Sequence record: MH159197.1
DNA from: Staphylococcus phage VB_SavM_JYL01
Direction: 5' to 3' (one strand)
Length of the DNA stretch: 64,000 nt
Both the position numbers and the translations under genes were made by a program. Under the pieces are notes generated by a model. That model made no database searches, was not told where the DNA came from, and saw nothing but the letters and a program-made list of their open reading frames with translations. Of the stretch, positions 10,278 to 50,910 are shown one piece after another. Within the stretch, counting starts at the first letter, position 1; the number at the start of each line of letters is the position of its first letter.

Positions 10278-10334
10278 AAAAAACCGACCTTTCTATTATA
10301 TTTATTTCTAACAATAATATAACAGTAGGTCGGT
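10278..10334 (-). terminator. large-loop hairpin plus U-run ending the 10361..10546 transcript
   Basis: accgacct (10283-10290) pairs with aggtcggt (10327-10334) and is followed by a U-run. The 36-nt loop carries the late motif. Confidence 0.4.
10315..10324 (-). promoter_or_regulatory. late-promoter motif TGTTATATTA upstream of holin-endolysin
   Basis: Exact 10-mer on the minus strand, ~40 nt upstream of the holin ATG. The same 10-mer recurs before the capsid, tape-measure and fiber operons. Confidence 0.55.
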
Positions 10335-10360
10335 CATGTTTATCTATATTAATTTAACAC

Positions 10361-10546
10361 TTACTCATTAATTTGATTTAGTTTTTTGATAACTTCAGAC
10401 ATTTGTTTGTTATCTAAATCTTCTAATTTAGTTTCAGGTAATAACTCTAATTTATCCCAAACTTCTTCTTTATTAGATACTTTATTATTAATAATTGCCT
10501 TACCAACTAAACTTTCCGTATAATATAATTGCTTTGCTGATGCCAT
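10361..10546 (-). CDS. hypothetical protein (61 aa)
   Basis: ORF track. Confidence 0.45.
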   Translation of the reverse strand: MASAKQLYYTESLVGKAIINNKVSNKEEVWDKLELLPETKLEDLDNKQMSEVIKKLNQINE

Positions 10547-10705
10547 TTGTATCTCTCCTTTTAAATATGTAAAGTATATAGCTAGTATCGTATCCTAGGA
10601 ACAAACACTTGCGCTATATACTCAATGAAACTCTACCCTCATTCGAGGACACAGCAAACCGATTCGTCAACCGCACATGTGAATTCTCAAGTTTCATTTA
10701 TGTAA

Positions 10706-10777
10706 CACACCCTCTTTGATTTGCACAAAGACTAAGGGTTTTGGAGACCCTTGTACTACTAATTATACTAAGGGTGT
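10706..10777 (-). tRNA. tRNA-Trp (anticodon CCA)
   Basis: Hand-folded cloverleaf. Acceptor ACACCCT/AGGGTGT, anticodon stem AGGGT/ACCCT, loop CTCCAAA. D- and T-loops are slightly non-canonical. Confidence 0.6.
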
Positions 10778-10783
10778 TTATTA

Positions 10784-10856
10784 TGGTTTCTATTGGATTT
10801 GAACCAATGACACCTAGAGCTTCAATCTAGTGCTCTACCATCTGAGCTAAGAAACC
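10784..10856 (-). tRNA. tRNA-Phe (anticodon GAA)
   Basis: Acceptor GGTTTCT/AGAAACC, D-stem GCTC/GAGC, anticodon stem CTAGA/TCTAG, loop TTGAAGC, T-arm ATTGG-TTCAAAT-CCAAT. Confidence 0.8.
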
Positions 10857-10862
10857 TTGTAA

Positions 10863-10936
10863 CGACTCATACGAGACTCGAACTCGTACTCTCTGCCGTG
10901 ACAGGGCAGTGTGTTAACCAGTTACACCAATGAGCC
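10863..10936 (-). tRNA. tRNA-Asp (anticodon GTC)
   Basis: Acceptor GGCTCAT/ATGAGTC, anticodon stem CTGCC/GGCAG, loop CTGTCAC, T-arm ACGAG-TTCGAGT-CTCGT. Confidence 0.8.
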
Positions 10937-11067
10937 AAAATAAATGCTATACCCTAACCTTACCTTAATGTATAGCAGGTTTTCATATAAGCTCGAAGCA
11001 ACGATTATTACCACTCATAACAACTATATATTAAGTGAAAGGAGGTGAAATGAACAAAACGTGGTAA

Positions 11068-11096
11068 TTGGTACTTATATAGGAAGTATGTATAAT
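11068..11096 (+). promoter_or_regulatory. plus-strand promoter-like element (TTGGTA-17-TATAAT) at the 5' edge of a long hairpin
   Basis: TTGGTA, then cttatataggaagtatg (17 nt), then TATAAT (11090-11095). Confidence 0.4.
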
Positions 11097-11184
11097 CTAC
11101 AAGGAGTAAGTTATTGGTTCATAAAGGAGTGTGAACAATAAATACATGAAAGAGTGAAAGTCTACTCCTTGTAGATTCTTTTTT
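11094..11184 (+). ncRNA. candidate small structured RNA / large-loop terminator
   Basis: Perfect 15-bp inverted repeat: aatctacaaggagta (11094-11108) pairs with tactccttgtagatt (11163-11177). The 54-nt loop has its own gttca/tgaac stem, and a T6 run follows (11179-11184). Confidence 0.4.
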
Positions 11185-11189
11185 AATTA

Positions 11190-11850
11190 TCAATCAAAGG
11201 AGGAAACTGATAATTGTTAATAATAAACTATAAAGAGGAAAATATTTATAGTCACATTCTGATATAATGCAACTAAATATCCAAGCATAACCCGTCTCAC
11301 GAGGAACCTACCTATAAGACCTGTTATTAAGTGAATCACTACGATTGACTCTATTAAGGAGCTACCTTAAGTCCATCTCACGCAATTTAAAAGGGACTTA
11401 CAAACCGTATAACGATAGTAAGTTTATTAAATAATGTGATATTAACATATTAGTTAATAACTTTCACATGGTCGAAGAAAAGTAAATTTATTTGATTTCC
11501 AAATTATTTTTATCAAATATAGCTTCTTTTGAACCTGTAGATTTATGCTACTCATACTAATAACCTCTATTATCTAACACATTTCTGTGCTCCAACTACA
11601 GTTAGTCGTTACAGCGTATCTTTCTAGGATTCCGCTAAGACCCTAGAAAGAAATTAAACCCTAGCCGTTATCATACTCTACAGACCTTATAAGTAAGTAC
11701 CAAGTATACCAATCGTATTTAACAATACTAATGACGACCCATCCTACCGATATATTTCCGATAGGTTTTGATTCGTTTGATTATCTTGTACCTTATGACT
11801 ACCAAATCATTATTCAGTCACTATGCTCAGATATTTAGTTGTATTATTAT
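11190..11850 (-). ncRNA. ORF-free ~0.66-kb transcribed leader downstream of two consensus promoters; candidate structured ncRNA or pseudo-tRNA region
   Basis: No ORF longer than ~20 codons on either strand despite non-extreme composition. It has many local hairpins, for example tctttctagg/cctagaaaga at ~11621-11655. It is continuous with the tRNA cluster on the same strand. Confidence 0.35.
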
Positions 11851-11856
11851 ATATTA

Positions 11857-11885
11857 ATTATAACATAATTTTTAGTACTTGTCAA
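11857..11885 (-). promoter_or_regulatory. perfect sigma-A consensus promoter (TTGACA-17-TATAAT), leftward
   Basis: Minus strand: TTGACA (11880-11885), 17-nt spacer, TATAAT (11857-11862). Confidence 0.65.
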
Positions 11886-12033
11886 GTTAATTTTAAAAAA
11901 AATTATAGAAGTAAGATAAAATTCTTACTTCCAATTAAAATTATAAGGATGATACACATTGTTATTGTTTAAACTGGAAAACAATGTAAGAAAAAACAGT
12001 GATGTGTAAGGTATTTGTTTTATTGTTAATTAC

Positions 12034-12062
12034 ATTATAGCATATACTGATACCTTTGTCAA
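12034..12062 (-). promoter_or_regulatory. perfect sigma-A consensus promoter (TTGACA-17-TATAAT), leftward
   Basis: Minus strand: TTGACA (12057-12062), 17-nt spacer, TATAAT (12034-12039). Shares the ttgtcaagttaattt context with the 11857 promoter. Confidence 0.65.
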
Positions 12063-12088
12063 GTTAATTTAATACTTTTTTTAAAATA

Positions 12089-12307
12089 TTAGTTATCTTT
12101 TGTTAGTTCTTCCTGAATAGCATCCCATCTTCTTTCTGCTTCACTACGATTATCTTCTATATGTTTTGTAGTTTTACAACATTTGATACAGTATATATCT
12201 TTGATATGACCTTCTTCTCTTTTATTTGCTCTTTTTCTTGGTACTTTGAATACATTACCACATTCTTTACATATTAAACTTGAGTAAAACATTTTTTGTC
12301 TTTTCAT
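12089..12307 (-). CDS. small zinc-ribbon protein (CxxC...CxxCC), 72 aa
   Basis: LICKECGNVFKV ... YCIKCCKTTKH. Confidence 0.55.
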   Translation of the reverse strand: MKRQKMFYSSLICKECGNVFKVPRKRANKREEGHIKDIYCIKCCKTTKHIEDNRSEAERRWDAIQEELTKDN

Positions 12308-12410
12308 AATTAATCAATTCCTTTTCTTGTTTTATTTGATAATTTAACTATATACTATATTGATAAATAAGTCAACAGTTTTCTAAAAATAATTTAAATT
12401 ATTTTGAAGA

Positions 12411-12541
12411 ATCCTTTAATACCAAGGGTTACAAGAGAAAAAGTACGTATTTAGAAAATAAGGAGTACTCCTATTATATATAATTATATTCTGATATAAG
12501 TAATTAATAATATTAAATATATAATTATAATTAATAAGGTT
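12411..12541. repeat. direct repeat unit 1 (~131 bp)
   Basis: Three conserved blocks: atcctttaRTAYCA; then aaaagtacgtatttagaaaataaggaNNNctcctattata; then aaatatataattataattaataaggtt. Contains the perfect palindrome GGAGTACTCC (12462-12471). Confidence 0.7.
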
Positions 12542-12600
12542 GGGAAAATTGAATTAAATATAATCTGATACTTGGTAAAACTACTCAATATAGAAGTAAA

Positions 12601-12732
12601 ATCCTTTAGTATCAGTACTTACAGACAAAAAAGTACGTATTTAGAAAATAAGGAACTCTCCTATTATAGTTATATATACTTATTAATTATTATTAATTAC
12701 TATCTAAATATATAATTATAATTAATAAGGTT
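12601..12732. repeat. direct repeat unit 2 (~132 bp), ~85% identical to unit 1
   Basis: Same three conserved blocks with a divergent AT-rich middle. Unit-to-unit spacing ~190 bp. Confidence 0.7.
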
Positions 12733-12787
12733 AGAGAGTCAACAAAAAGACAAATAAAAAAGTGACTACTTAAAGTCACTTGTTAAT

Positions 12788-12997
12788 TTAAAAAACTATT
12801 TTAAATGATTCAATCATTCTTGGGTTAATATAAATTAAACTAGAACTAGCATCTTCAGTTGTATTAACTTTTATTGATGCTGAATCAGAACCACTAATCA
12901 TATAGTCTATATCTTTTCTAGTGTAACCCTTTTCGTCAGATGATACTAAAAAATATTTAGCACCACTTAACATTGTTATTTCAATATGTTTTGACAT
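12788..12997 (-). CDS. hypothetical protein (69 aa)
   Basis: ORF track. Confidence 0.5.
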   Translation of the reverse strand: MSKHIEITMLSGAKYFLVSSDEKGYTRKDIDYMISGSDSASIKVNTTEDASSSLIYINPRMIESFKIVF

Positions 12998-13009
12998 CTA
13001 CAATCTCTC

Positions 13010-13342
13010 CTATGCAAATTTGTTAAAGACAAAGGATAGTATAGCACCTAGAACGAGTAAAAGAACCTTCTCAGTAGTATCCTTCTTCCTAGTATCTTTA
13101 GTTTTTGTACTTTCAGCAAGTTCTGAAATCTTTTCATCAAGTCTTTCTAATTGGACGTAAATTGCTGATTGTTTTTCACTATTGACAGCTACATCTTTAT
13201 CTATACTAACTATCATTTTTCTTAGTTCAGCTACCTCAACTTCTAAATCTTTGAAAGTTCCTCTATCTATATAATTACCTTCTTGTATCTTAGACTTAAT
13301 AGTTTCTACTTGAGAAACAAGGTTGTTTATCTCCTTATCCAA
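13010..13342 (-). CDS. coiled-coil protein with C-terminal TM anchor (tail-anchored membrane protein)
   Basis: Heptad-rich body, then a KKDTTEK stretch, then a hydrophobic C-terminus VLLLVLGAILSFVF. Confidence 0.55.
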   Translation of the reverse strand: MDKEINNLVSQVETIKSKIQEGNYIDRGTFKDLEVEVAELRKMIVSIDKDVAVNSEKQSAIYVQLERLDEKISELAESTKTKDTRKKDTTEKVLLLVLGAILSFVFNKFA

Positions 13343-13354
13343 CTAGAATCACCT

Positions 13355-13681
13355 CTAAGGTCTAACCGTTTCAGATTCAGAATGGATATCATAATTTTCT
13401 AAGAAATCATTGATAATCTCCATATAATTATCCGTAACGACTTTTCCGTAAGATGTTTTTGTATCAATTTCAAACCTAAGCTTACCAAAACTTTGGAGGT
13501 CTAATTCTTTTATTACAATATTAGGGTCATCAGAAGGAAGGTAATAATAGTCGAAGTATATAATTGAGCCATTTATTAATACTCTGTCTATTCTATAGAC
13601 GTGGAAATAGCGTCTGTCTCTTTTAAAATGGGCTAGTGCATCTTTAAACTCTAACTTAAGGATATCCTTATATTTAGTCAA
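13355..13681 (-). CDS. hypothetical protein (108 aa)
   Basis: ORF track. Confidence 0.5.
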   Translation of the reverse strand: MTKYKDILKLEFKDALAHFKRDRRYFHVYRIDRVLINGSIIYFDYYYLPSDDPNIVIKELDLQSFGKLRFEIDTKTSYGKVVTDNYMEIINDFLENYDIHSESETVRP

Positions 13682-13713
13682 AGTGGTAACCTCCTTACTA
13701 TTAATTTTTAAAT

Positions 13714-13980
13714 TTACTTATTTTGTGGTATAATAGTTATGATAAAGGCAGTTATTATAATTATATTAAGAATAATGATAATAATTATTTTTTCTGAGAA
13801 AATAAGCCAAATACTAAAAACAGATAAAGCATAGATAGCTGATAGATATACTATATTAAGAGTTACCTTACTTTTATCTTCTTTATAGATAGAATAACCT
13901 AAAGACGTTGTAACACCACTAAGTATAAAATAATAGAAACAAAAAAGAGGTATAGACAGAAAAAAAGATACGATAATCAT
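13714..13980 (-). CDS. small very hydrophobic membrane protein (88 aa, ~3 TM)
   Basis: ORF track; Ile/Leu-rich. Confidence 0.5.
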   Translation of the reverse strand: MIIVSFFLSIPLFCFYYFILSGVTTSLGYSIYKEDKSKVTLNIVYLSAIYALSVFSIWLIFSEKIIIIIILNIIIITAFIITIIPQNK

Positions 13981-14037
13981 TGTTAAACACCTATTTCTTT
14001 TTGACCTATTATTTATAGAACTTTTAGATTACACCAC

Positions 14038-14047
14038 TAATATAACA
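14038..14047 (-). promoter_or_regulatory. late-promoter motif TGTTATATTA (leftward)
   Basis: Exact 10-mer on the minus strand, ~58 nt upstream of the 13980 start. Confidence 0.5.
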
Positions 14048-14072
14048 TTAAAAGCCAGTCATAAAAGTCAAT

Positions 14073-14082
14073 TGTTAGATTA
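14073..14082 (+). promoter_or_regulatory. late-motif variant TGTTAGATTA (rightward), 1 mismatch
   Basis: Located ~40 nt upstream of the 14121 start, in the divergent region. Confidence 0.3.
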
Positions 14083-14120
14083 ATAATATAATAAAAAAAG
14101 ACAATAGGAGGTTAAAGTGG

Positions 14121-14507
14121 TTGAATAATAACATAGCTATATTCATATTCAAAACACTGGTTATCATTATATTCTTACTACTAATTTTGTCTGTTATTAA
14201 TTCCTTGTCCCTTATTTATTCAATAAGACCGAGTGTAGTTATGACATACTTTATATTTGGTGGTATTGTTTCTAATGTCGCACTTACTATAACAGATAAG
14301 TTCTTACTGAAGAAAGAAGACCCCCTACCTGAATATGTTCTTAAAAAAGTAGAGATAAATGATAAAGAAATAAGAATAATCAAGAAAATCATAGAAAGTA
14401 ACTACGGTATAACAGCAGAAGAGATAAAAGTTAGGGCTAAAGCACAAAGAAGAATAGAGGAAGATAGTAAAAAGGAAGATTACGATGAAAACAAAGAAAG
14501 AAATTAA
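14121..14507 (+). CDS. membrane protein with charged C-terminal domain (128 aa, TTG start)
   Basis: ORF track; GGAGG SD upstream. Confidence 0.5.
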   Translation: MNNNIAIFIFKTLVIIIFLLLILSVINSLSLIYSIRPSVVMTYFIFGGIVSNVALTITDKFLLKKEDPLPEYVLKKVEINDKEIRIIKKIIESNYGITAEEIKVRAKAQRRIEEDSKKEDYDENKERN

Positions 14508-15170: not shown

Positions 15171-15184
15171 GGAGAAAGATATAA

Positions 15185-19723: not shown

Positions 19724-19738
19724 TTACTCCTCTTTTTT
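19715..19738 (+). terminator. intrinsic terminator
   Basis: Palindrome gaggagtaa/ttactcctc overlapping the stop codon, then a T6 run. Confidence 0.6.
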
Positions 19739-19774
19739 GTTTGCTATATTAAATAAGAGATAAATATAAAAAAA

Positions 19775-20149
19775 TTGAACATTACGGTGGTGAAAACTTT
19801 GATAGGAATGAATGTTATAACGTCACTATCAGTAGTATTTACCTGTTTAAGTCTTTTAACTTTAATGATTTTTGTTCACAGTAAGTTCTCCAGTAAAAAC
19901 GTTTTTGTTTTGTATGTAATTTATGCTATAATAGGAATAGGTACATACATAGTTTTAACTATGTTTCAAACAACATCTGTACTTATTAAGAATGATGTAA
20001 TAGATTCCATAGAAAATACTGAACATTATATTGGATTCAATGACCCTATAATTATATTTACTATAAGTTTTATAGGGGCAATACTTGGAGGAATTTGGTA
20101 CAAGATGATGAAAATTATTAAAAAGAGTAACTTTAAAGATAAAAAATAA
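19775..20149 (+). CDS. membrane protein (~3 TM)
   Basis: ORF track. The true start may be the internal ATG at ~19808. Confidence 0.5.
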   Translation: MNITVVKTLIGMNVITSLSVVFTCLSLLTLMIFVHSKFSSKNVFVLYVIYAIIGIGTYIVLTMFQTTSVLIKNDVIDSIENTEHYIGFNDPIIIFTISFIGAILGGIWYKMMKIIKKSNFKDKK

Positions 20150-22370: not shown

Positions 22371-22380
22371 TGTTATATTA
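22371..22380 (+). promoter_or_regulatory. late-promoter motif TGTTATATTA upstream of protease/capsid genes
   Basis: Exact 10-mer ~45 nt upstream of the 22426 ATG. Confidence 0.55.
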
Positions 22381-22425: not shown

Positions 22426-23199
22426 TTGGAAGAAATAAAATTTAATGCTTTTGTACCTATGGATTTGAAGAAATCTGTATCAACAGCTTCTGATACTAAT
22501 GAGTATTCTATAGTTTCAGGATGGGCTAGTACTCCAAGTATGGATTTACAGAATGATATAGTTAATCCTAAAGGAATAGATATAGAGTATTTTAAGTCAC
22601 AAGGGTACATTAATTATGAGCATCAAAGTGATAAAGTTGTAGGTATACCTACAGAGAATTGCTATGTGGATATAGAAAAAGGTTTATTTATTGAAGCAAA
22701 GCTATGGAAGAATGATGAAAATGTTGTTAAGATGCTTGATTTAGCTGAGAAATTAGAAAAATCAGGTAGTGGAAGACGTTTAGGTTTTTCTATTGAAGGT
22801 GCAGTTAAAAAACGTAACATAAATGACAATAGAGTTATTGATGAAGTTATGATAACAGGAGTTGCATTAGTTAAAAATCCTGCTAATCCTGAAGCAACAT
22901 GGGAAAGCTTTATGAAATCATTTTTAACTGGTCACGGTACATCACCTGACACTCAAGTTGATGCAGGAGCTTTAAGGAAAGAAGAAATAGCATCTAGCAT
23001 TACAAATTTAGCTTACGTCACTAAGATTAAAGATTTAAAAGAGTTTAATGATGTATGGAATGGCGTTGTTGAAGATTTGAGTAAATCTAATAGTATGGGA
23101 TATGAGGAATCAGTCCTTACGTTACAACTAGCTAAAGGTTTATCTCGTAAAGATGCAGAACTAGCAGTAATGGATATAAACAAACAAAAACTAGAATAG
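22426..23199 (+). CDS. prohead protease (HK97 family)
   Basis: 257 aa. Assigned by position between portal and capsid and by sequence pattern. Confidence 0.75.
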   Translation: MEEIKFNAFVPMDLKKSVSTASDTNEYSIVSGWASTPSMDLQNDIVNPKGIDIEYFKSQGYINYEHQSDKVVGIPTENCYVDIEKGLFIEAKLWKNDENVVKMLDLAEKLEKSGSGRRLGFSIEGAVKKRNINDNRVIDEVMITGVALVKNPANPEATWESFMKSFLTGHGTSPDTQVDAGALRKEEIASSITNLAYVTKIKDLKEFNDVWNGVVEDLSKSNSMGYEESVLTLQLAKGLSRKDAELAVMDINKQKLE

Positions 23200-24193: not shown

Positions 24194-24203
24194 TGTTATA
24201 TTA
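24194..24203 (+). promoter_or_regulatory. late-promoter motif TGTTATATTA upstream of the major capsid gene
   Basis: Exact 10-mer, followed by an 8-bp stem hairpin (24229-24250) in the leader. Confidence 0.55.
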
Positions 24204-24292: not shown

Positions 24293-25684
24293 ATGACTAT
24301 CGAAAAGAACCTGTCAGACGTTCAACAAAAGTACGCTGACCAATTCCAAGAAGACGTAGTAAAGTCATTCCAAACTGGTTATGGAATCACTCCTGATACA
24401 CAAATTGACGCAGGAGCTTTACGTAGAGAAATTTTAGATGACCAAATCACAATGTTAACATGGACTAATGAAGATTTAATCTTCTATCGTGATATCTCAC
24501 GCCGTCCTGCTCAATCTACAGTAGTAAAATACGACCAATATTTACGTCACGGTAACGTAGGTCACTCTCGTTTCGTTAAAGAAATCGGAGTAGCACCAGT
24601 ATCTGACCCAAATATCCGTCAAAAAACCGTATCAATGAAATACGTTTCTGATACTAAAAACATGTCAATTGCATCAGGTTTAGTAAATAACATTGCTGAC
24701 CCATCACAAATCCTTACAGAAGATGCTATCGCAGTTGTTGCAAAAACAATTGAGTGGGCTTCATTCTACGGTGATGCTTCATTAACTTCTGAAGTTGAAG
24801 GTGAAGGTTTAGAATTTGATGGTTTAGCTAAATTGATTGACAAAAATAACGTAATTAACGCTAAAGGTAACCAATTAACTGAGAAACACTTAAACGAGGC
24901 GGCTGTACGTATCGGTAAAGGTTTCGGTACAGCTACAGATGCTTACATGCCTATTGGTGTACACGCAGACTTCGTTAACTCAATCTTAGGTCGTCAAATG
25001 CAATTAATGCAAGACAACAGCGGTAACGTTAACACTGGTTACAGTGTAAATGGTTTCTACTCATCTCGTGGATTCATTAAATTACATGGTTCTACAGTAA
25101 TGGAAAATGAATTAATCTTAGATGAATCATTACAACCATTACCAAACGCTCCTCAACCTGCTAAAGTTACAGCTACAGTTGAAACTAAGCAAAAAGGTGC
25201 TTTTGAAGATGAAGAAGACCGTGCAGGATTATCATATAAAGTAGTAGTTAACTCAGATGACGCTCAATCAGCTCCTTCTGAAGAAGTAACAGCTACAGTA
25301 TCTAACGTTGACGATGGTGTTAAACTTTCAATCAGTGTTAACGCTATGTACCAACAACAACCACAATTTGTTTCTATCTACCGTCAAGGTAAAGAAACAG
25401 GTATGTACTTCCTAATCAAACGTGTACCAGTTAAAGATGCACAAGAAGATGGAACAATCGTATTCGTAGATAAGAACGAAACATTGCCTGAAACAGCAGA
25501 CGTATTCGTTGGTGAAATGTCACCACAAGTAGTTCACTTATTCGAATTACTTCCAATGATGAAATTACCATTAGCTCAAATTAATGCTTCTATTACATTT
25601 GCAGTATTATGGTATGGTGCATTAGCATTACGTGCTCCTAAAAAATGGGCTCGTATTAAAAACGTTCGTTATATCGCAGTTTAA
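24293..25684 (+). CDS. major capsid protein
   Basis: 463 aa, HK97-fold-type composition. Highest codon quality in the window. Position. Confidence 0.85.
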   Translation: MTIEKNLSDVQQKYADQFQEDVVKSFQTGYGITPDTQIDAGALRREILDDQITMLTWTNEDLIFYRDISRRPAQSTVVKYDQYLRHGNVGHSRFVKEIGVAPVSDPNIRQKTVSMKYVSDTKNMSIASGLVNNIADPSQILTEDAIAVVAKTIEWASFYGDASLTSEVEGEGLEFDGLAKLIDKNNVINAKGNQLTEKHLNEAAVRIGKGFGTATDAYMPIGVHADFVNSILGRQMQLMQDNSGNVNTGYSVNGFYSSRGFIKLHGSTVMENELILDESLQPLPNAPQPAKVTATVETKQKGAFEDEEDRAGLSYKVVVNSDDAQSAPSEEVTATVSNVDDGVKLSISVNAMYQQQPQFVSIYRQGKETGMYFLIKRVPVKDAQEDGTIVFVDKNETLPETADVFVGEMSPQVVHLFELLPMMKLPLAQINASITFAVLWYGALALRAPKKWARIKNVRYIAV

Positions 25685-25756: not shown

Positions 25757-25785
25757 TTGAAGGGACTCAATAAATATGTTATACT
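25757..25785 (+). promoter_or_regulatory. promoter-like TTGAAG-17-TATACT; its -10 region overlaps a TGTTATACTA late-motif variant
   Basis: Seen in sequence. The first ATG of the track ORF lies inside this element. Confidence 0.4.
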
Positions 25786-25808
25786 ATAAGAAATTACTAA
25801 ATACAAAA

Positions 25809-26072
25809 ATGGCTACCATTTATGGTACAGTAGATATTGACAAAGATGGAGTAGTTAAAGGATTAACTAAGGAACAAGAAAAAGAGTTTGCAAATGTTCC
25901 AGGTTTTGAATTTGAAGAAGAAAAGAAAACTACTAGAAAACAATCAGCTTCTACTAGTAAAGAAGAAGAACCTAAAGAAGAGGAAAAGAAAGCCTCTACT
26001 AGAAAAACTACAAGTACTACTAGAAAATCTACAGCACGTAAAACAACAGCCAAAAAAGATGAAAATAAGTAA
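25809..26072 (+). CDS. small basic Lys/Thr-rich protein (start moved to the internal Met, MATIYG...)
   Basis: The track start at 25776 lies inside the promoter element, so the start was reassigned to 25809. Confidence 0.5.
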   Translation: MATIYGTVDIDKDGVVKGLTKEQEKEFANVPGFEFEEEKKTTRKQSASTSKEEEPKEEEKKASTRKTTSTTRKSTARKTTAKKDENK

Positions 26073-28523: not shown

Positions 28524-29360
28524 ATGGCAATAACATCAGTTGATTCATATTTATTATCAGAAATAAAGCCTAGACTTAACACTGTGCTAGAGAATTGTTA
28601 TATTATAGATGAAGTTTTAAAAGACTTTGATTATCAAACTAGAGAGAGCTTTAAAGAAGCTTTCTGCGGTAAGAATGCACAACATGAAGTAACGGTAGGA
28701 TTTAACTTCCCAAAATTTAAAAATAACTATGAAGCTCATTACTTGATACAATTAGGTCAAGGACAAGAGACAAAAAACTCTTTAGGGAGTATTCAGTCAT
28801 CTTACTTTGAGGCAACAGGAGATACCTTAGTCGAATCTTCTACAGCAATAAGAGAAGATGATAAGTTAGTTTTTACTGTTTCTAAACCTATAGGAGAATT
28901 AATAAAAGTAGAAGATATAGAGTTTGCTAAATACGATAATCTTCAAGTTGAAGGTAATAAGGTATCATTTAAGTACCAAACAAATGAAGATTATGAGAAT
29001 TATAATGCTAATATTATCTTTACTGAAAAGAAAAACGACTCTAAAGGTTTAGTAAAAGGATTCACAGTTGAAGAACAAGTAACAGTTGTAGGTCTATCAT
29101 TTAATGTAGATGTTGCACGATGTTTAGATGCTGTATTAAAAATGATTTTAATATCTATGAGAGATAGTATAGAAGAGCAACAAACATTCCAATTACAGAA
29201 TTTGTCCTTTGGTGATATTGCACCAATAATAGAAGACGGTGACTCAATAATTTTTGGTAGACCGACAATTATTAAGTACACAAGTTCTCTAGACTTGGAT
29301 TATACTATTACACAAGATATTAATAAACTAACTTTTAAAGAAAGAAAGGATTGGAAGTAG
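28524..29360 (+). CDS. virion structural protein (278 aa)
   Basis: Position. Confidence 0.5.
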   Translation: MAITSVDSYLLSEIKPRLNTVLENCYIIDEVLKDFDYQTRESFKEAFCGKNAQHEVTVGFNFPKFKNNYEAHYLIQLGQGQETKNSLGSIQSSYFEATGDTLVESSTAIREDDKLVFTVSKPIGELIKVEDIEFAKYDNLQVEGNKVSFKYQTNEDYENYNANIIFTEKKNDSKGLVKGFTVEEQVTVVGLSFNVDVARCLDAVLKMILISMRDSIEEQQTFQLQNLSFGDIAPIIEDGDSIIFGRPTIIKYTSSLDLDYTITQDINKLTFKERKDWK

Positions 29361-33330: not shown

Positions 33331-33391
33331 TTTTGATTTAAAAACAAAATATGATATACTATGTTTAAAGTAGTAAGCCTACACTAGTCCG

Positions 33392-33401
33392 TGTTATATT
33401 A
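33392..33401 (+). promoter_or_regulatory. late-promoter motif TGTTATATTA for the tail-chaperone/tape-measure operon, inside the loop of an 8-bp inverted repeat (33375-33427)
   Basis: Exact 10-mer. Flanking repeat arms are aagcctac and gtaggctt. Confidence 0.55.
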
Positions 33402-33461
33402 ATATTGAATCGGATAAGCGTAGGCTTTATTAATATTTAAAAAAGGAAGGTATATCATATT

Positions 33462-33920
33462 ATGGCAGAAGAAATTAAAAAGGAACAAGATGTACAAGAA
33501 ACAACTAAAGAAGATAAAAAAGATGTTAGTAAAATGACACCGGAAGAAATAGATAAATTAAAATATCAAGATAAGCAAGAAAAAGAACAAGTAATTAACA
33601 AAGTTATTAAAGGTGTTAATGATACTTGGGAAAAAGAATATAACTTTGAAGAATTAGATTTAAGATTTAAAGTTAAAATTAAATTACCTAATGCACGAGA
33701 ACAAGGTAACATATTTGCGTTACGTTCTGCTTACTTAGGTGGTATGGATATGTATCAAACAGACCAAGTAATTAGAGCATACCAAATGTTAGCTACATTA
33801 CAAGAAGTAGGTATTGAAGTTCCTAAGGAATTCCAAGACCCTGATGATATCTATAACTTATATCCTTTAACTGTTATGTATGAAGATTGGTTAGGATTCT
33901 TAAACTCCTTTCGTTACTAA
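33462..33920 (+). CDS. tail assembly chaperone candidate (152 aa)
   Basis: First of two ORFs directly upstream of the tape-measure gene. Confidence 0.5.
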   Translation: MAEEIKKEQDVQETTKEDKKDVSKMTPEEIDKLKYQDKQEKEQVINKVIKGVNDTWEKEYNFEELDLRFKVKIKLPNAREQGNIFALRSAYLGGMDMYQTDQVIRAYQMLATLQEVGIEVPKEFQDPDDIYNLYPLTVMYEDWLGFLNSFRY

Positions 33921-44597: not shown

Positions 44598-44668
44598 TGT
44601 AATTTAAACTAGTTCGTGATATATTAGTAGTATGAGATTTATATACATACTGAAAAGGAGAGGATAAA

Positions 44669-46688: not shown

Positions 46689-46702
46689 GAAAGGATTAAA
46701 TT

Positions 46703-47749
46703 ATGAAAACTAGAAAATTAACTAACATATTATCAAAATTAATAGATAAGACAATGGCAGGTACAAGTAAGATAACAGATTTTACCCCTGGTTCAGCCTC
46801 TAGGTCATTATTAGAAGCTGTATCATTAGAGATAGAGCAATTTTATATCTTGACAAAAGAAAATATTGATTGGGGTATACAAGAAGGTATTATTGAAGCT
46901 TTTGATTTCCAAAAGAGACAATCTAAAAGAGCTTATGGTGATGTTATCATTCAATTTTATCAACCTTTAGATATGAGAATGTATATACCTGCAGGAACAA
47001 CTTTTACTTCAACACGACAAGAATACCCTCAGCAATTTGAAACATTAGTTGATTATTATGCAGAGCCTGACTCTACTGAGATTGTTGTTGAGGTTTATTG
47101 TAAAGAAACAGGAGTTGCAGGTAATGTTCCTGAAGGAACAATTAATACTATAGCATCAGGTTCTAGTTTGATTAGAAGTGTTAATAATGAGTATTCTTTT
47201 AATACAGGAACTAAAGAAGAAAGCCAAGAAGACTTTAAACGTAGATTTCACTCTTTTGTAGAATCTAGAGGTAGAGCAACTAATAAATCGGTAAGATATG
47301 GAGCATTGCAGATACCTGATGTAGAAGGTGTTTATGTTTATGAAGAAACAGGACATATTACAGTATTTGCACATGATAGAAATGGTAATTTATCAGATAC
47401 TTTAAAAGAAGATATAATTGATGCTTTACAAGACTATAGACCGAGTGGTATAATGTTAGATGTTACAGGTGTAGAAAAAGAAGAAGTTAATGTTTCTGCT
47501 ACAGTAACTATATCTAATAAATCTAGAATTGGTGATACATTGCAAAAACATATTGAAGGTGTTATTAGAAGCTACTTAAATAATTTAAAAACTTCTGATG
47601 ACCTGATAATTACAGACCTTATTCAAGCTATAATGAATATTGATGATGTATTAATATATGATGTATCGTTTGAGAACTTAGATGAGAACATTATAGTACC
47701 ACCACAAGGAATTATTAGAGCAGGAGAAATAAAAGTAGAATTAAAGTAA
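46703..47749 (+). CDS. baseplate J-like protein
   Basis: 348 aa, typical size and position for baseplate J. Confidence 0.55.
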   Translation: MKTRKLTNILSKLIDKTMAGTSKITDFTPGSASRSLLEAVSLEIEQFYILTKENIDWGIQEGIIEAFDFQKRQSKRAYGDVIIQFYQPLDMRMYIPAGTTFTSTRQEYPQQFETLVDYYAEPDSTEIVVEVYCKETGVAGNVPEGTINTIASGSSLIRSVNNEYSFNTGTKEESQEDFKRRFHSFVESRGRATNKSVRYGALQIPDVEGVYVYEETGHITVFAHDRNGNLSDTLKEDIIDALQDYRPSGIMLDVTGVEKEEVNVSATVTISNKSRIGDTLQKHIEGVIRSYLNNLKTSDDLIITDLIQAIMNIDDVLIYDVSFENLDENIIVPPQGIIRAGEIKVELK

Positions 47750-47769
47750 AGAGAGGTGAAACTTAAGTC

Positions 47770-50700
47770 GTGGCTAATTTTTTAAAGAATCTTCATCCAT
47801 TATTAAGAAGAGATAGAAATAAAAAAGATAATCAAGACCCTAACTTTGCTCTGATAGATGCACTCAATGAAGAGATGAATCAAGTAGAGAAAGATGCTAT
47901 AGAAAGCAAGTTACAATCTTCTCTAAAGACAGCAACGAGTGAATATTTAGACAAATTTGGAGATTGGTTTGGGGTTTATAGAAAGACCGATGAAAAAGAT
48001 GATGTTTATAGAGCAAGAATTATAAAATACTTACTCTTGAAAAGAGGAACTAACAATGCTATAATAGATGCTATAAGAGATTATTTAGGTAAGGATGATA
48101 TTGATGTAAGCGTGTATGAACCCTTTACCAATATTTTCTATACTAACAAATCATACTTAAATGGTGAAGACCATTTAATGGGATACTATTATAGATTTGC
48201 TGTTATAAATGTTTCTATAGGTGACTATTTCCCTATAGAGATTATAGATGTAATTAACGAATTTAAACCTGCAGGTGTAACATTATATGTTACTTATGAT
48301 GGAGCTTCTACTATCAGAGGTGGAGCAATTATTAAGTGGTTAGATGGACTACCTAAAATTGAAACATATCAAGAGTTTGATAGGTTTACAGGTTATGATG
48401 ATACATTTTATGGTCATATTAATATGAATCAAAGTAAAGATACTGATAATAGTTCATCAGACATTTTTAAAACAAATCATAGTTTAATTAATAGTTTAGA
48501 TGTTTTAACAGGTTCCTCTAGTGTAGGTAGACAATATGTTAACTATGGATATGTAACATCATATGTTTATAATCCAGGTATGACATCTTCTGTAAACCAA
48601 ATAAGTGCTAGTACAGAAGGTAGAGGTCAGGAAGTACCTACTGATTATTATATGTATACTAGTACCAAGAATAATAATACAGTAGAACTTAATATGCAAA
48701 CTACTTCCGGTGTATCTTATCTCTATAATAACTTTAATTTTAGAGATTATATGAGTAAGTATAGACCTCAAGTAGATTTACAATCTGATGAGGCTAGAAG
48801 AATTGTATCTGATTATATAAAAGAATTAAGTATTGATTATTATCTCAGTGCTGTTATACCTCCTGACGAAAGTATAGAAATTAAATTACAAGTTTATGAC
48901 TTTTCTATTAATAGATGGCTTACAGTATCAATTAGTAACTTATCTTTCTATGAAAAAAATATTGGTAGCAATATAGGTTATATAAAAGATTATTTAAATA
49001 GTGAATTAAATATGTTTACTAGATTAGAGATAAATGCAGGTAAAAGAGACTCAGTAGATATTAAAGTTAACTATCTAGATTTAATGTTTTATTACTATGA
49101 ACGAGGAATTTACACAATAAAACCTTATAAAGCATTAGTAGAAAATTACTTAGATATATCTAGAGAGACTTATGTAGAGGCGTTTAAAATAGCATCATTA
49201 TTGAATGGAGACATTATAACTAAAACAGGTTTCCAACCTATAGGATACTTAAAATTAGTTGGTAGTTATGAGAATACAAGACCTAGCGCAGTAAACATAG
49301 TAGCTAAAGATACAGATAATAATCCTATAGAATCTACTGAGTTAGATGTGTATAGTACAATAGAAAACAGGAATCTATTACAGTCTTATAAAGGTGTAAA
49401 TAATATAGCTAGAGAAATAACATCTACGGAAGAGTTTACCGTATCAGGATGGGCTAAAGAGATATATTCAACTAATTATTTGTCTAAAGTACTAAAACCA
49501 GGTAAAGTATACACTTTATCTTTCGATATGGAAATAACAAATAATGACCTGACTCTTAAATCTTATTCTGATAATCATGGTATATATTTATACAGTAATA
49601 CCAAAGGAATTGTTGTTAATGGTGTTAAATCTATGGAGCGCACCGTAGGTAACAAAGTATCTATAACTCAGACTTTTACAGCACCTACTATTACCGACCA
49701 CAGGTTATTAATTTATACTGGAAGATATACATCTGATGGGAAAGCATCAACCCCTCCAGTGTTCTTTAATACAGTTAAAATTACTGAACTAAAATTATCT
49801 GAAGGTGACTCTAAATTAGCTTACTCACCTGCCCCTGAAGATAAACCTAATGTAATAGAAAAAGGAATTCAATTTAATAATATCAAAACTAATATACAGA
49901 CTTTAAATATCAATTCAGATATTAATCTAAAGAATGTAACTTTATACTATTCTTACTATGGTGATAGTTGGGTAGAATTAAAAACTATAGGTAATATTAG
50001 TACAGGAGAAACAACAGAAACTAATAATTTAATAGATTTATATGGATTACAGACAGTAGATTACTCTAACATAAATCCAATGTCAAAAGTATCATTACGT
50101 TCTATTTGGAATGTTAAATTAGGTGAACTTAATAATCAAGAAGGTTCTTTATCTAATATGCCTAATGATTATTTTAATGCTGTATGGCAAGACATAGATA
50201 AACTATCAGATATTGATTTAGGTTCTATGAGAATGGTCAAAGACACTGAAGGTGGAGTATTTGATGGAGCTACAGGTGAAATTATTAAGGCTACTTTATT
50301 TAACGTTGGTGTTTATACTGATTTAGATATGTTAGCTTATACTTTGACTAATTACACTGAACCATTAACTTTAGGTTCTAGTAGATTGATAAGTGAGCTA
50401 AAAGAAGAATTACTAACATCAGAATCATTTAATGTTGATAATAGAATTAAAGTAATTGACTCAATCTCTGAGCAATTACCTAATAATAATATATTGAGTA
50501 ACTCTTATCAAACACAAACGATTACACAGAATGGATTTGCTAAATATAATTTGAAAGAACCTATAGAACAAAGAAAACAATACAACCTAAGAATACATGG
50601 AGATTTTAAAGAAGGACTAGAAAGATTAGCTATAGGTAATTCTAATGGGTCATTTAATGAAGTATTTGTTTATCCTGAAAATATTAAAGATGGTATAGTA

Positions 50701-50835
50701 GATATTACTTATACTTCTAGAGATGATAATTATGCAGAAGGAAAACAAAGACTTAATAATGATTATAGAGTTTATGCTCAACCATATGATAGTGGTGTAG
50801 TTACAATTTACAGTCTAGAGTTAATAAAAGTTTAA
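47770..50835 (+). CDS. large baseplate/tail-fiber structural protein (1021 aa, GTG start)
   Basis: Position and size. Confidence 0.6.
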   Translation: MANFLKNLHPLLRRDRNKKDNQDPNFALIDALNEEMNQVEKDAIESKLQSSLKTATSEYLDKFGDWFGVYRKTDEKDDVYRARIIKYLLLKRGTNNAIIDAIRDYLGKDDIDVSVYEPFTNIFYTNKSYLNGEDHLMGYYYRFAVINVSIGDYFPIEIIDVINEFKPAGVTLYVTYDGASTIRGGAIIKWLDGLPKIETYQEFDRFTGYDDTFYGHINMNQSKDTDNSSSDIFKTNHSLINSLDVLTGSSSVGRQYVNYGYVTSYVYNPGMTSSVNQISASTEGRGQEVPTDYYMYTSTKNNNTVELNMQTTSGVSYLYNNFNFRDYMSKYRPQVDLQSDEARRIVSDYIKELSIDYYLSAVIPPDESIEIKLQVYDFSINRWLTVSISNLSFYEKNIGSNIGYIKDYLNSELNMFTRLEINAGKRDSVDIKVNYLDLMFYYYERGIYTIKPYKALVENYLDISRETYVEAFKIASLLNGDIITKTGFQPIGYLKLVGSYENTRPSAVNIVAKDTDNNPIESTELDVYSTIENRNLLQSYKGVNNIAREITSTEEFTVSGWAKEIYSTNYLSKVLKPGKVYTLSFDMEITNNDLTLKSYSDNHGIYLYSNTKGIVVNGVKSMERTVGNKVSITQTFTAPTITDHRLLIYTGRYTSDGKASTPPVFFNTVKITELKLSEGDSKLAYSPAPEDKPNVIEKGIQFNNIKTNIQTLNINSDINLKNVTLYYSYYGDSWVELKTIGNISTGETTETNNLIDLYGLQTVDYSNINPMSKVSLRSIWNVKLGELNNQEGSLSNMPNDYFNAVWQDIDKLSDIDLGSMRMVKDTEGGVFDGATGEIIKATLFNVGVYTDLDMLAYTLTNYTEPLTLGSSRLISELKEELLTSESFNVDNRIKVIDSISEQLPNNNILSNSYQTQTITQNGFAKYNLKEPIEQRKQYNLRIHGDFKEGLERLAIGNSNGSFNEVFVYPENIKDGIVDITYTSRDDNYAEGKQRLNNDYRVYAQPYDSGVVTIYSLELIKV

Positions 50836-50843
50836 TAAATAAG

Positions 50844-50872
50844 TTGACAGAAAGTTAATAATATGGTATACT
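50844..50872 (+). promoter_or_regulatory. sigma-A-type promoter TTGACA-17-TATACT
   Basis: Seen in sequence. Confidence 0.5.
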
Positions 50873-50900
50873 TATAAAGTAATATTTAGTGGGTATACCA

Positions 50901-50910
50901 TGTTATATTA
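50901..50910 (+). promoter_or_regulatory. late-promoter motif TGTTATATTA, directly abutting the inverted repeat atggtatac/gtataccat (50864-50901)
   Basis: Exact 10-mer ~35 nt upstream of the 50946 ATG. Confidence 0.55.

What the first reader, a model, noticed from the sequence alone, without database searches (positions are those of the whole stretch)
10315..50910. Recurrent 10-mer TGTTATATTA marks the late transcription units (six exact copies)
Exact copies occur at 10315-10324 (minus, before holin-endolysin), 14038-14047 (minus, before the leftward membrane-protein block), 22371-22380 (before protease), 24194-24203 (before major capsid), 33392-33401 (before chaperones and tape-measure) and 50901-50910 (before the fiber block). 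One-mismatch variants lie at 14073 (plus), 25776 and 44617. Six exact copies of a 10-mer in 64 kb, every one 35-60 nt upstream of a lysis or structural gene and none inside the early arm's coding regions, is far beyond chance. It matches my recollection of a proposed late-promoter motif in Twort-like phages. The copy at 14038 predicts that genes 12788..13980 (a tail-anchored coiled-coil protein and a very hydrophobic membrane protein) are late genes, expressed with the lysis cassette.
Basis: partly seen in the sequence, partly recalled or inferred. Interest (0 to 1): 0.55.

Follow-up and report, generated by a model that had tools for sequence, protein, structure and literature searches.

The report
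Known late-promoter box of Kayvirus phages

Summary
The window is a Staphylococcus Kayvirus genome segment, 100% identical over 14 kb to phage vB_SauH_IME522. TGTTATATTA is real and non-random. All seven lie on the sense strand. Six lie in the 9% of the window that is non-coding, where about 0.1 is expected, and there it is the most frequent 10-mer.

The motif is the published late-promoter "-10 box" of Kayviruses (Kornienko 2020; Finstrlova 2022). With 30-nt flanks, six copies match named promoters pL74, pL82, pL95, pL97, pL102 and pL110. Four of these rest on RNA-seq coverage steps.

Corrections:
- The copy at 50901 showed no late induction in the published data.
- The "variants" at 25777 and 44617 are the -10 elements of early, sigma-70-type promoters.
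- One copy lies inside a coding region.

My additions are small. The box sits at orthologous positions in Sepunavirus, Baoshanvirus and Listeria phages (there as TGCTATATTA), and downstream of the sigma-factor gene in seven genera. At lysis genes it is embedded in a terminator hairpin that also pairs with the ribosome-binding site.

Verdict: already known; low interest.

The parts
10315..10324 (-). Late-promoter box, equal to published pL74. It lies 38 nt upstream of the holin gene (9773..10276), which is followed by the endolysin gene (8286..9773).
   Evidence: Exact match. 30/30 identity to pL74, which was used to build the published matrix and so rests on an RNA-seq step. holA rises 106-fold at 30 vs 5 min.
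14038..14047 (-). Late-promoter box, equal to published pL82. It lies 57 nt upstream of the leftward block 12788..13980 (mbpW, mbpC and two hypothetical proteins; TU18).
   Evidence: TU18 is late-only; its genes rise 17- to 154-fold. The box is at the same place in Sepunavirus and Baoshanvirus.
22371..22380 (+). Late-promoter box, equal to published pL95, 45 nt upstream of the prohead protease gene (22426..23199).
   Evidence: based on an RNA-seq step. An orthologous box precedes the protease gene in Sepunavirus, Baoshanvirus and a Listeria phage.
24194..24203 (+). Late-promoter box, equal to published pL97, 89 nt upstream of the major capsid gene (24293..25684).
   Evidence: matrix prediction only in 515A1. 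Listed as late in phage K, before gp173. In a four-genus alignment of the region upstream of the capsid gene, the box and the ribosome-binding site are the only conserved blocks.
28596..28605 (+). Late-promoter box, equal to published pL102. It is internal, 72 nt into the neck-protein CDS 28524..29360, upstream of the tail sheath and tail tube genes.
   Evidence: based on an RNA-seq step. It is in frame as Cys-Tyr-Ile-Ile. The synonymous positions are invariant in four genera, and the Listeria copy follows that lineage's TGC variant. The tail sheath gene rises 41-fold.
33392..33401 (+). Late-promoter box, equal to published pL110 (start of TU22), 60 nt upstream of 33462..33920 and followed by the tape-measure gene.
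   Evidence: The upstream gene 00109 changes -1.9-fold while the downstream gene 00110 rises 29-fold. Listed as late in phage K, before gp160.
50901..50910 (+). Consensus box 35 nt upstream of bmpC (50946..51467) and 28 nt downstream of the -10 hexamer of early promoter p121. Its function as a late promoter is unproven.
   Evidence: It is absent from the published list of 12, and the paper says the site before bmpC gives no significant rise. bmpC changes 1.3-fold. The tandem arrangement of early -10 hexamer, hairpin and box is nevertheless conserved before the bmpC orthologue of a Listeria phage.
6966..6975 (-). Variant late box TGCTATATTA, equal to published pL67, upstream of the transglycosylase gene tgl (6182..6874). 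It overlaps early promoter p67.
   Evidence: 30/30 identity; based on an RNA-seq step.
19742..19751 (+). Variant late box TGCTATATTA, equal to published pL92, 23 nt upstream of 19775..20149. It abuts the U-run of terminator 19712-19735.
   Evidence: (28/30 identity). Listed as late in phage K, before gp178. The Sepunavirus orthologue carries the exact TGTTATATTA.
13726..13735 (+). Published pL83 (TGGTATAATA). This atypical box lies antisense inside ORF 13714..13980, 385 nt upstream of the rightward operon.
   Evidence: Classed as late in 515A1 but as 'middle' (nc005) in phage K, so its class is unsettled.
14073..14082 (+). Candidate divergent late box TGTTAGATTA, 38 nt upstream of the rightward packaging and morphogenesis operon (14121...). 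It appears in neither published promoter table I read.
   Evidence: A box-like sequence sits at the equivalent place in Sepunavirus (TGTTAGATTA), Baoshanvirus (TATTATATTA) and a Listeria phage (TGCTAAATTA). No RNA-seq support.
10282..10335 (-). Terminator hairpin (published t75) that encloses the pL74 box. Its 3' arm carries the holin ribosome-binding site and is followed by a U-run and the start codon AUG.
   Evidence: dG -22.9 kcal/mol, z -5.5. The Table S3 sequence for t75 contains the box. Unpaired probability of the ribosome-binding site is 0.11 in read-through RNA and 0.43 in late RNA.
33371..33432 (+). Terminator hairpin (published t109) that encloses the pL110 box.
   Evidence: dG -23.0 kcal/mol, z -5.1. 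Table S3. The Sepunavirus orthologue has a hairpin with a different stem sequence.
50844..50872 (+). Early sigma-70-type promoter p121 (TTGACA, 17-nt spacer, TATACT) just upstream of the 50901 box. It probably masks any late contribution from that box.
   Evidence: Classed as 'middle' in phage K, before gp149.
25777..25786 (+). Not a late box. TGTTATACTA is the extended -10 element of early promoter p98 (-35 box TTGAAG).
44617..44626 (+). Not classed as late. TGATATATTA is the -10 element of promoter p116 (-35 box TTGTAA), called early in 515A1 and middle in phage K.

Best explanation
TGTTATATTA is the extended '-10' box of the Kayvirus late-promoter class. Late in infection, host core RNA polymerase carrying a phage-specified specificity factor starts transcription about 6 nt downstream of the box, without using a -35 element. 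This switches on the lysis cassette, the leftward membrane-protein block, and the head, neck, tail and tape-measure genes.

The factor is most likely the phage 'Sig' protein, a homologue of SPO1 gp34 that is encoded outside this window.

Shown (by published RNA-seq on identical sequence, plus the statistics and conservation found here): the boxes are late promoters. Inferred: which factor reads them. Inferred and weaker: that the 50901 and 14073 sites are active.
For: Position and statistics:
- All 7 exact copies are on the sense strand, and 6 of 7 are in non-coding DNA. Expectation there is about 0.1 (P about 1e-9), and it is the top 10-mer.
- Six copies, plus variants pL67 and pL92, are identical with flanks to published late promoters defined by RNA-seq.

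Published late induction of downstream genes:
- holA 106-fold
- TU18 genes 17- to 154-fold
- tail sheath 41-fold
- gene 00110 29-fold, while its upstream neighbour changes -1.9-fold

Promoter anatomy:
- No -35 element. The best TTGACA match at 16-18 bp is no better than background for 6 of 7 copies.
- Information content is about zero at every position upstream of the box in 32 sites from four genera.
- G is enriched at the 6th nt after the box (17 of 32 against about 15% background), which matches the published start nucleotide.

Conservation:
- The box is kept at orthologous positions in Sepunavirus, Baoshanvirus and Listeria phages while the flanks diverge.
- Cappable-seq in Listeria phage CKA15 gives the late motif TDTGCTATATTA.

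The factor:
- The box lies directly downstream of the sig gene in 7 Herelleviridae genera.
- The N-terminal part of Sig is homologous to that of SPO1 gp34, the late sigma factor (hhalign probability 98.4%, E = 6e-15; 39% identity over 80 aa).
- Host rpoC mutations at sigma-contacting regions of the beta-prime subunit abolish phage K late expression.
Against: - No transcription start-site mapping exists for this exact phage. Two of the six matched promoters (pL97, pL110) were matrix predictions in 515A1.
- The 50901 copy shows no late induction in published data.
- pL154, a perfect box elsewhere in the genome, also showed no step. The box is therefore not sufficient in every context.
- The box reads as a good host extended -10 element (TGn + TATATT), so sequence alone does not exclude use by host sigma-A.
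- Sig has no Pfam sigma domain and no hit in the PDB by sequence. Its role has not been shown biochemically.
- A 2024 phage K paper still describes late-promoter structure and function as not understood.
Confidence: 0.88

Rival explanations
1. The boxes are ordinary host sigma-A extended -10 promoters (TGnTATAAT-like, independent of a -35 box). Their late timing would come from redistribution or modification of host holoenzyme, for example by the phage anti-sigma protein Asf (G1 gp67 family) or by template replication, and not from a phage sigma factor.
For: - The box contains TG at the extended -10 position and TATATT, a 5/6 match to TATAAT.
- Most early promoters of this phage also carry TG-extended -10 elements. 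Some have TGGTATATTA or TGATATATTA and were scored as meeting both early and late criteria.
- Sig has no recognisable sigma-70 domain by sequence.
Against: - Genes behind the boxes are nearly silent at 5 and 15 min, when sigma-A promoters are fully active.
- Positions that sigma-A does not require are invariant across genera: T1, pyrimidine 3, T at hexamer position 5, and A10.
- The box co-occurs family-wide with the gp34-like sig gene.
- rpoC mutations specifically abolish late expression.
Confidence: 0.09
2. The repeats are a chance or compositional by-product of AT-rich intergenic DNA.
For: - The window has about 30% G+C.
- The raw whole-window count is not significant after correcting for 54,181 10-mers.
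- One-mismatch neighbours are not enriched.
Against: - Six copies in 5.8 kb of non-coding DNA against about 0.1 expected under Markov models of order 0 to 3.
- Seven of seven on the sense strand.
- Conserved at orthologous sites in four genera while the flanks diverge.
- RNA-seq steps published for the identical sequences.
Confidence: 0.005
3. The box acts mainly as something other than a promoter: a protein operator, or an RNA-level element that forms part of terminator or processing hairpins.
For: Several boxes lie inside or next to strong hairpins. In the window these are 10315, 33392, 19742 and 50901; the same is seen at pL158 in 515A1 and at several orthologues.
Against: - The other boxes (22371, 24194, 28596, 6966) have no significant structure, with z-scores from -2.0 to +0.2.
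- The stems differ in sequence between genera while the box stays the same.
- Published coverage steps begin just downstream of the box.
Confidence: 0.025

Closest known systems
Late promoters pL32-pL158 of Kayvirus vB_SauM-515A1 (Kornienko et al. 2020, PMC7698491) and the late promoters of phage K (Finstrlova et al. 2022, PMC9241854)
   Same: This is the same element. The box is TGTTATATTA with no -35 element, and the same genes lie downstream. Identity with flanks is 30/30 for six exact copies and for pL67, and 28/30 for pL92.
   Different: Nothing of substance. This window's phage (IME522-like) lacks the lysK and terminase introns of 515A1. The 50901 and 14073 sites are not in the published late lists.
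Late promoters of Listeria P100-like phage CKA15 (TDTGCTATATTA; ONT-cappable-seq, PMC12282133)
   Same: An extended -10-like box without a -35 element, placed before the endolysin, capsid and other late genes. The boxes sit at orthologous positions, including the site inside the neck-protein gene and the site before the bmpC orthologue.
   Different: Position 3 is C rather than T in most Listeria-phage copies.
Bacillus phage SPO1 late promoters read by gp34 (sigma) plus gp33: CGTTAGA-N17-19-GATATT (consensus as quoted in PMC3601020)
   Same: - Same virus family.
- The -10 core is nearly the same, GATATT against TATATT. SPO1 has TGTGATATTA inside a terminator hairpin before its protease gene.
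- The N-terminal domain of Kayvirus Sig is homologous to that of gp34.
- The sigma gene is preceded by a small overlapping gene in both.
   Different: - There is no CGTTAGA-type -35 element here.
- The C-terminal halves of Sig and gp34 do not align.
- The small upstream protein shows no detectable homology to gp33.
Phage T4 late promoters (TATAAATA; gp55 + gp33 + sliding clamp gp45), recalled from general knowledge
   Same: Works alike in outline. A late promoter consists only of an extended -10-type box, has no -35 element, and is read by a small phage sigma-like protein on host core polymerase.
   Different: The box sequence differs. No homology was tested between Sig and gp55. Nothing here shows dependence on the sliding clamp or on replication.
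Host sigma-A extended -10 promoters (TGnTATAAT)
   Same: TG two bases upstream of a hexamer that matches TATAAT at 5 of 6 positions.
   Different: These boxes are silent early, when sigma-A is active. They also have extra invariant positions (T1, Y3, T8, A10), and conserved T in place of A at hexamer position 5.

Membership tests
Kayvirus/Herelleviridae late-promoter class (Kornienko 2020) | 10-bp box TGTTATATTA (TGYTATATTA) | tested here: met
   Seven exact copies and two TGCTATATTA variants on the sense strand.
Kayvirus/Herelleviridae late-promoter class (Kornienko 2020) | No -35 hexamer or UP element | tested here: met
   The best TTGACA match at 16-18 bp is 1-4 of 6 for six copies, no better than background. 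Only 28596 has TTAACA (5 of 6), and that is not conserved in Sepunavirus. Information content upstream of the box is about zero in 32 sites.
Kayvirus/Herelleviridae late-promoter class (Kornienko 2020) | Located upstream, on the sense strand, of lysis or morphogenesis genes | tested here: met
   Six copies are intergenic, 35-89 nt from a start codon. One is internal to the neck-protein gene, upstream of the tail sheath gene.
Kayvirus/Herelleviridae late-promoter class (Kornienko 2020) | Late-time transcript starts about 6 nt downstream of the box, usually at G | not testable with these tools
   No RNA data exist for this phage. In 515A1, RNA-seq steps were published for the identical pL74, pL82, pL95, pL102 and pL67. 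Indirect support found here: G at the 6th nt after the box in 17 of 32 sites.
Kayvirus/Herelleviridae late-promoter class (Kornienko 2020) | Downstream genes induced late | not testable with these tools
   Published Table S1: holA 106-fold, TU18 genes 17- to 154-fold, gene 00110 29-fold, tail sheath 41-fold. bmpC, behind the 50901 copy, changes only 1.3-fold, so that copy does not meet this criterion in the published data.
SPO1-type late promoter (gp33/gp34) | -35 element CGTTAGA placed 17-19 bp upstream of GATATT | tested here: not met
   Nothing is conserved upstream of the box. A pattern search with one mismatch per element finds only three hits, all inside coding regions and unrelated to the boxes.
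SPO1-type late promoter (gp33/gp34) | -10 element GATATT | tested here: inconclusive
   The core here is TATATT, a 5/6 match. SPO1's protease-upstream site reads TGTGATATTA, one mismatch from the box.
SPO1-type late promoter (gp33/gp34) | Cognate gp34-like sigma and gp33-like accessory protein encoded by the phage | tested here: inconclusive
   The genes lie outside the window. In the near-identical 515A1 genome, the N-terminal 80 aa of Sig are homologous to gp34. The adjacent 117-aa protein is in the same gene position as gp33 but shows no detectable homology to it.
Host sigma-A extended -10 promoter | TG at -15/-14 plus a TATAAT-like hexamer | tested here: met
   TG-T-TATATT.
Host sigma-A extended -10 promoter | Active with host holoenzyme from the start of infection | not testable with these tools
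   Published counts argue against it: holA reads run about 50, 160 and 5,200 at 5, 15 and 30 min.
T4-type late promoter | TATAAATA box read by gp55 | tested here: not met
   The box sequence is different. Homology between gp55 and Sig was not tested.

The most novel reading that the evidence does not exclude
In Herelleviridae, the late box at lysis genes is built into a terminator hairpin whose 5' arm acts as an anti-Shine-Dalgarno sequence. Transcripts reading through from early promoters terminate there and have the ribosome-binding site paired. Late transcripts start in the loop, lack the 5' arm and are translatable. This would be a two-level lock against premature lysis.

The arrangement recurs with unrelated stem sequences in Kayvirus, Sepunavirus, Listeria, Enterococcus and Mammaliicoccus phages. 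The box-in-terminator part alone also occurs before the SPO1 protease gene, which is not a lysis gene. I did not find it discussed in the papers I read.
Probability: 0.4. Interest if true: 0.45.

Novelty: already known. Interest (0 to 1): 0.12.

Why it matters
The motif itself adds nothing new. It has been in the literature since 2020, as a sequence logo, a promoter table and expression data for a near-identical phage. Its practical value is for annotation: it lets one call late transcription units in any Kayvirus genome, which matters for therapeutic phages.

The open questions are which phage factor reads the box, why some perfect boxes (50901, pL154) show no step, and whether the promoter-inside-terminator arrangement at lysis genes is a real timing lock. 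These are modestly interesting and can be tested directly.

Tried and rejected
- **Blind 10-mer census of the whole window.** The motif ranks only 2nd, and its count is not significant after correction. The other top 10-mers are coding-sequence coincidences, the -35 context TGTTGACAAA, or terminator tails.
- **One-mismatch search.** Not enriched overall. It is useful only after filtering for strand and position.
- **SPO1-type bipartite pattern.** No credible hits in the window.
- **Pfam and PDB sequence searches with Sig and with a seven-genus Sig profile.** No significant hit. The best was RpoH at E = 0.54.
- **Profile comparison of the small protein upstream of sig with SPO1 gp33.** No homology.
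- **Search for the primary A511 late-promoter paper (primer extension).** Not in the library.
- **Keyword search for earlier descriptions of promoter-in-terminator or anti-Shine-Dalgarno locks at holin genes.** Nothing relevant.
- **Rfam scan of the non-coding stretch 10400-14200.** Only the three tRNAs.
- **Large protein-database searches and structure prediction.** I chose not to use them. The cis element is already explained, and the factor's gene lies outside the window.

Full report
**What the window is.** The segment 20000-34000 is 100% identical to Staphylococcus phage vB_SauH_IME522. It is 95-99% identical to many other Kayviruses (Herelleviridae, Twortvirinae), such as JD007, ISP and G1. 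Genes run leftward up to about 14,000: an early arm, then lysK and the holin gene, three tRNAs, and a membrane-protein block. From about 14,100 they run rightward: terminase, portal, protease, capsid, neck, sheath, tape measure, baseplate and helicases.

**Check of the observation.**
- TGTTATATTA occurs seven times, not six: 10315(-), 14038(-), 22371(+), 24194(+), 28596(+), 33392(+) and 50901(+).
The copy at 28596 was missed.
- Shuffles give 1.03 expected, and none of 100 reaches 7.
In a blind census of all 54,181 10-mers it ranks second with p = 2e-6, which does not survive correction. One-mismatch neighbours are not enriched, 38 against 28.
- The signal is positional. All seven copies are on the sense strand of the local genes. 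Six lie in the 5,830 non-coding bases (9.1% of the window).
- Markov models of order 0 to 3 expect 0.08-0.13 copies there (P about 1e-9), and it is the most frequent 10-mer in that sequence. Its density is about 60 times that in coding sequence.
- Distances from box end to start codon are 38, 57, 45, 89, 60 and 35 nt. The seventh copy is 72 nt inside the CDS 28524..29360.

**What it is.** The motif is in the abstract of Kornienko et al. 2020 (PMC7698491). RNA-seq of Kayvirus vB_SauM-515A1 at 5, 15 and 30 min gave 58 early sigma-70-type promoters and 12 late promoters. [quoted passage not shown] Finstrlova et al. 2022 found the same for phage K, and a 2023 review repeats it.

I matched the published Table S2 entries (10-nt flank, box, 10-nt flank) to the window:

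| Window position | Published name | Identity | Basis in 515A1 |
|---|---|---|---|
| 10315 | pL74 | 30/30 | RNA-seq step |
| 14038 | pL82 | 30/30 | RNA-seq step |
| 22371 | pL95 | 30/30 | RNA-seq step |
| 24194 | pL97 | 30/30 | matrix search |
| 28596 | pL102 | 30/30 | RNA-seq step |
| 33392 | pL110 | 30/30 | matrix search |
| 6966 (TGCTATATTA) | pL67 | 30/30 | RNA-seq step |
| 19742 (TGCTATATTA) | pL92 | 28/30 | matrix search |
| 13726 (TGGTATAATA) | pL83 | 30/30 | RNA-seq step |

Phage K lists pL97 and pL110 as late as well.

The copy at 14038 was predicted to make genes 12788..13980 late. This is correct and already published. pL82 starts the late-only unit TU18. Fold changes at 30 vs 5 min are 17 (mbpW), 108 (mbpC), 154 (00081) and 19 (00080). 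For comparison, holA rises 106-fold and lysK.2 92-fold.

- *The 50901 copy.* It is not among the 12 published late promoters. [quoted passage not shown] Its box starts 28 nt downstream of the -10 hexamer of the active early promoter p121.
- *The variants at 25777 and 44617.* These are the -10 elements of p98 and p116, which have -35 boxes. They are classed as early in 515A1 and middle in phage K.
- *The gene after 50901.* It is a baseplate protein (bmpC), not a fibre protein.

**Independent tests of the promoter anatomy.**
- For six of the seven copies, the best TTGACA match at a 16-18 bp spacer is 1-4 of 6, the same as random positions.
- Only 28596 has TTAACA (5 of 6). That hexamer lies in coding sequence and is not kept in Sepunavirus.
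- I pooled 32 boxes from the window and three other genera. Information content is about zero at every position from -20 to -1.
- The only enriched flanking position is G at the 6th nt after the box, 17 of 32 sites. This agrees with the published start site.

**Conservation.** I fetched the homologous regions of Sepunavirus BE06, Baoshanvirus PSU4 and Listeria phage LMTA-148.
- The exact box, or TGCTATATTA in the Listeria phage, sits before the holin or endolysin gene, the leftward block, the protease gene, the capsid gene and the chaperone/tape-measure block. It also sits at the same codon position inside the neck-protein gene.
- In a four-genus alignment of the region upstream of the capsid gene (58% mean identity), the box and the ribosome-binding site are the only conserved blocks.
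- The internal site encodes Cys-Tyr-Ile-Ile. Its synonymous positions are invariant while neighbouring codons drift, and the Listeria copy has the lineage-typical TGC. This argues for selection on the DNA sequence itself.
- Cappable-seq on Listeria phage CKA15 has already reported TDTGCTATATTA as the late motif. The family-wide conservation is therefore also largely known.

**Two small refinements.**
- *The 50901 site.* The tandem arrangement of an early -10 hexamer, a hairpin and a late box before bmpC is also present before the 173-aa orthologue in the Listeria phage. The 50901 box is therefore probably functional, with the early promoter upstream masking its contribution.
No RNA-seq study lists it. 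The published pL83 lies 385 nt upstream and is called late in one study and middle in another.

**How it most likely works.** Host core polymerase needs a late specificity factor.
- Kayviruses encode 'Sig' (220 aa), outside this window and just upstream of late promoter pL158.
- Sig belongs to PHROG 1025, 'RNA polymerase sigma factor'. It has relatives in phages of Staphylococcus, Listeria, Enterococcus, Bacillus and Lactobacillus, among other hosts.
- Its N-terminal 80 residues are homologous to SPO1 gp34, the late sigma factor: 39% identity, hhalign probability 98.4%. The C-terminal halves do not align.
- This fits the cis elements. The -10 cores are nearly the same (TATATT against SPO1's GATATT). 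SPO1's CGTTAGA -35 element (PMC3601020) has no counterpart here.
- In seven genera, sig is preceded by a small overlapping gene and followed directly by a TG[TC]TATATTA box. SPO1 has gene 33 in the position of that small gene, but I found no homology between the two.
- Host rpoC mutations in sigma-contacting regions of the beta-prime subunit abolish phage K late expression.

The identity of the factor remains an inference. Sig has no Pfam sigma domain and no match in the PDB by sequence. The main rival is that host sigma-A uses the box as an extended -10 promoter. The early silence of these genes and the extra invariant positions argue against this, but do not exclude it.

**Noticed along the way: boxes inside terminators.** Several boxes lie inside or right next to terminators.
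- The 10315 box is inside a hairpin (dG -22.9 kcal/mol, z -5.5) whose 3' arm runs into the U-tract and the holin start codon.
- The 33392 box is inside another hairpin (dG -23.0, z -5.1).
- The 19742 box abuts a terminator U-run.
- The 50901 box abuts a hairpin (z -4.75).

Table S3 of the 515A1 paper lists these hairpins as t75 and t109, but the main text does not discuss the overlap.

The predicted start site falls in the loop, so late RNA would lack the 5' arm. The same arrangement, with unrelated stem sequences, occurs at the following sites:
- before the holin or endolysin gene of Sepunavirus, Listeria, Enterococcus and Mammaliicoccus phages;
- at pL158 in 515A1;
- before the SPO1 protease gene, as TGTGATATTA.

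In a partition-function model, the Shine-Dalgarno region of the lysis gene is far less accessible in read-through RNA than in late RNA:

| Phage | Read-through RNA | Late RNA |
|---|---|---|
| Kayvirus (window) | 0.11 | 0.43 |
| Sepunavirus | 0.10 | 0.40 |
| Listeria LMTA-148 | 0.04 | 0.69 |
| Enterococcus ZJGS4 | 0.03 | 0.63 |
| Mammaliicoccus PMS2 | 0.26 | 0.61 |
| Bacillus Juglone | 0.21 | 0.71 |

There is no such difference at the protease, capsid, pL82 or bmpC sites. The 33392 (pL110) site does show one, 0.11 against 0.47, so the effect is not limited to lysis genes. This points to a termination-plus-translation lock on lysis genes. It is a computational inference only.

**Verdict.** The finding is already in the literature in full detail, so novelty is nil and interest is low. 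What remains worth testing is the identity of the factor, the status of the silent perfect boxes, and the hairpin lock at lysis genes.

Noticed in passing
window 10282-10335 (-), 33371-33432 (+), 19712-19751 (+), 50860-50910 (+); L002 8950-9040, L004 7090-7145, L007 1188-1243, L011 1262-1330, L005 24564-24618, L013 29095-29135: Late boxes are often embedded in, or abut, terminator hairpins. At lysis genes the 3' arm carries the ribosome-binding site, so only transcripts that start inside the loop would be translatable. The stems differ in sequence between genera. Modelled accessibility of the ribosome-binding site is 0.03-0.26 in read-through RNA against 0.40-0.71 in late RNA.
   Followed up: partly
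window 50834-50945; L004 37035-37165: The tandem arrangement before bmpC (early -10 hexamer TATGGTATAcT, then a hairpin, then the late box) is conserved between the Kayvirus and a Listeria P100-like phage. The 50901 box is therefore probably functional even though published RNA-seq shows no late step.
   Followed up: partly
window 14073-14082 (+): TGTTAGATTA lies 38 nt upstream of the rightward packaging operon and diverges from pL82. It has box-like counterparts at the same position in Sepunavirus (identical), Baoshanvirus (TATTATATTA) and a Listeria phage (TGCTAAATTA). It appears in neither published promoter table I read.
   Followed up: partly
window 28596-28605 (+), inside CDS 28524..29360: The internal late promoter pL102 encodes Cys-Tyr-Ile-Ile at codons 25-28 of the neck protein. 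Across four genera its synonymous sites are frozen. The Listeria copy has TGC, which matches that lineage's box variant.
   Followed up: yes
window 13726-13735 (+), antisense inside ORF 13714..13980: Published pL83 (TGGTATAATA) lies 385 nt upstream of the operon it is said to drive. It is called late in 515A1 but 'middle' (non-coding RNA nc005) in phage K. Its class and role look unsettled.
   Followed up: no
window 1086-1095 (-): A third TGCTATATTA, the same variant as pL67 and pL92, lies on the sense strand 35 nt inside early-arm ORF 552..1130. It is not in the 515A1 late-promoter table; I did not check it against the phage K table. It may be chance or an unrecognised site.
   Followed up: no
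window 25776-25790 (+): The -10 hexamer of early promoter p98 (25780-25785) lies downstream of the ATG at 25776 that opens ORF 25776..26072, which is annotated the same way in 515A1. Either the start codon or the promoter assignment is probably wrong.
   Followed up: no
L005 23554-24700; L006-L011; L012 26741-27636: In seven Herelleviridae genera the gene order is: a UvsX-like recombinase, a small protein of about 90-125 aa (phrog_1089 for the Kayvirus member) that overlaps the start of sig, then sig, then a TG[TC]TATATTA box directly downstream. In several phages the next gene is the holin gene. SPO1 has gp33 in the position of the small protein, but no homology to it was detectable.
   Followed up: partly
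window 10547-12088 and 12308-12787: These are two large non-coding stretches. tRNA-Trp, tRNA-Phe and tRNA-Asp lie at 10706-10937 (-). The rest, roughly where the published highly expressed lncRNA2 would lie by rough coordinate offset, matches no Rfam family at E <= 0.1.
   Followed up: partly
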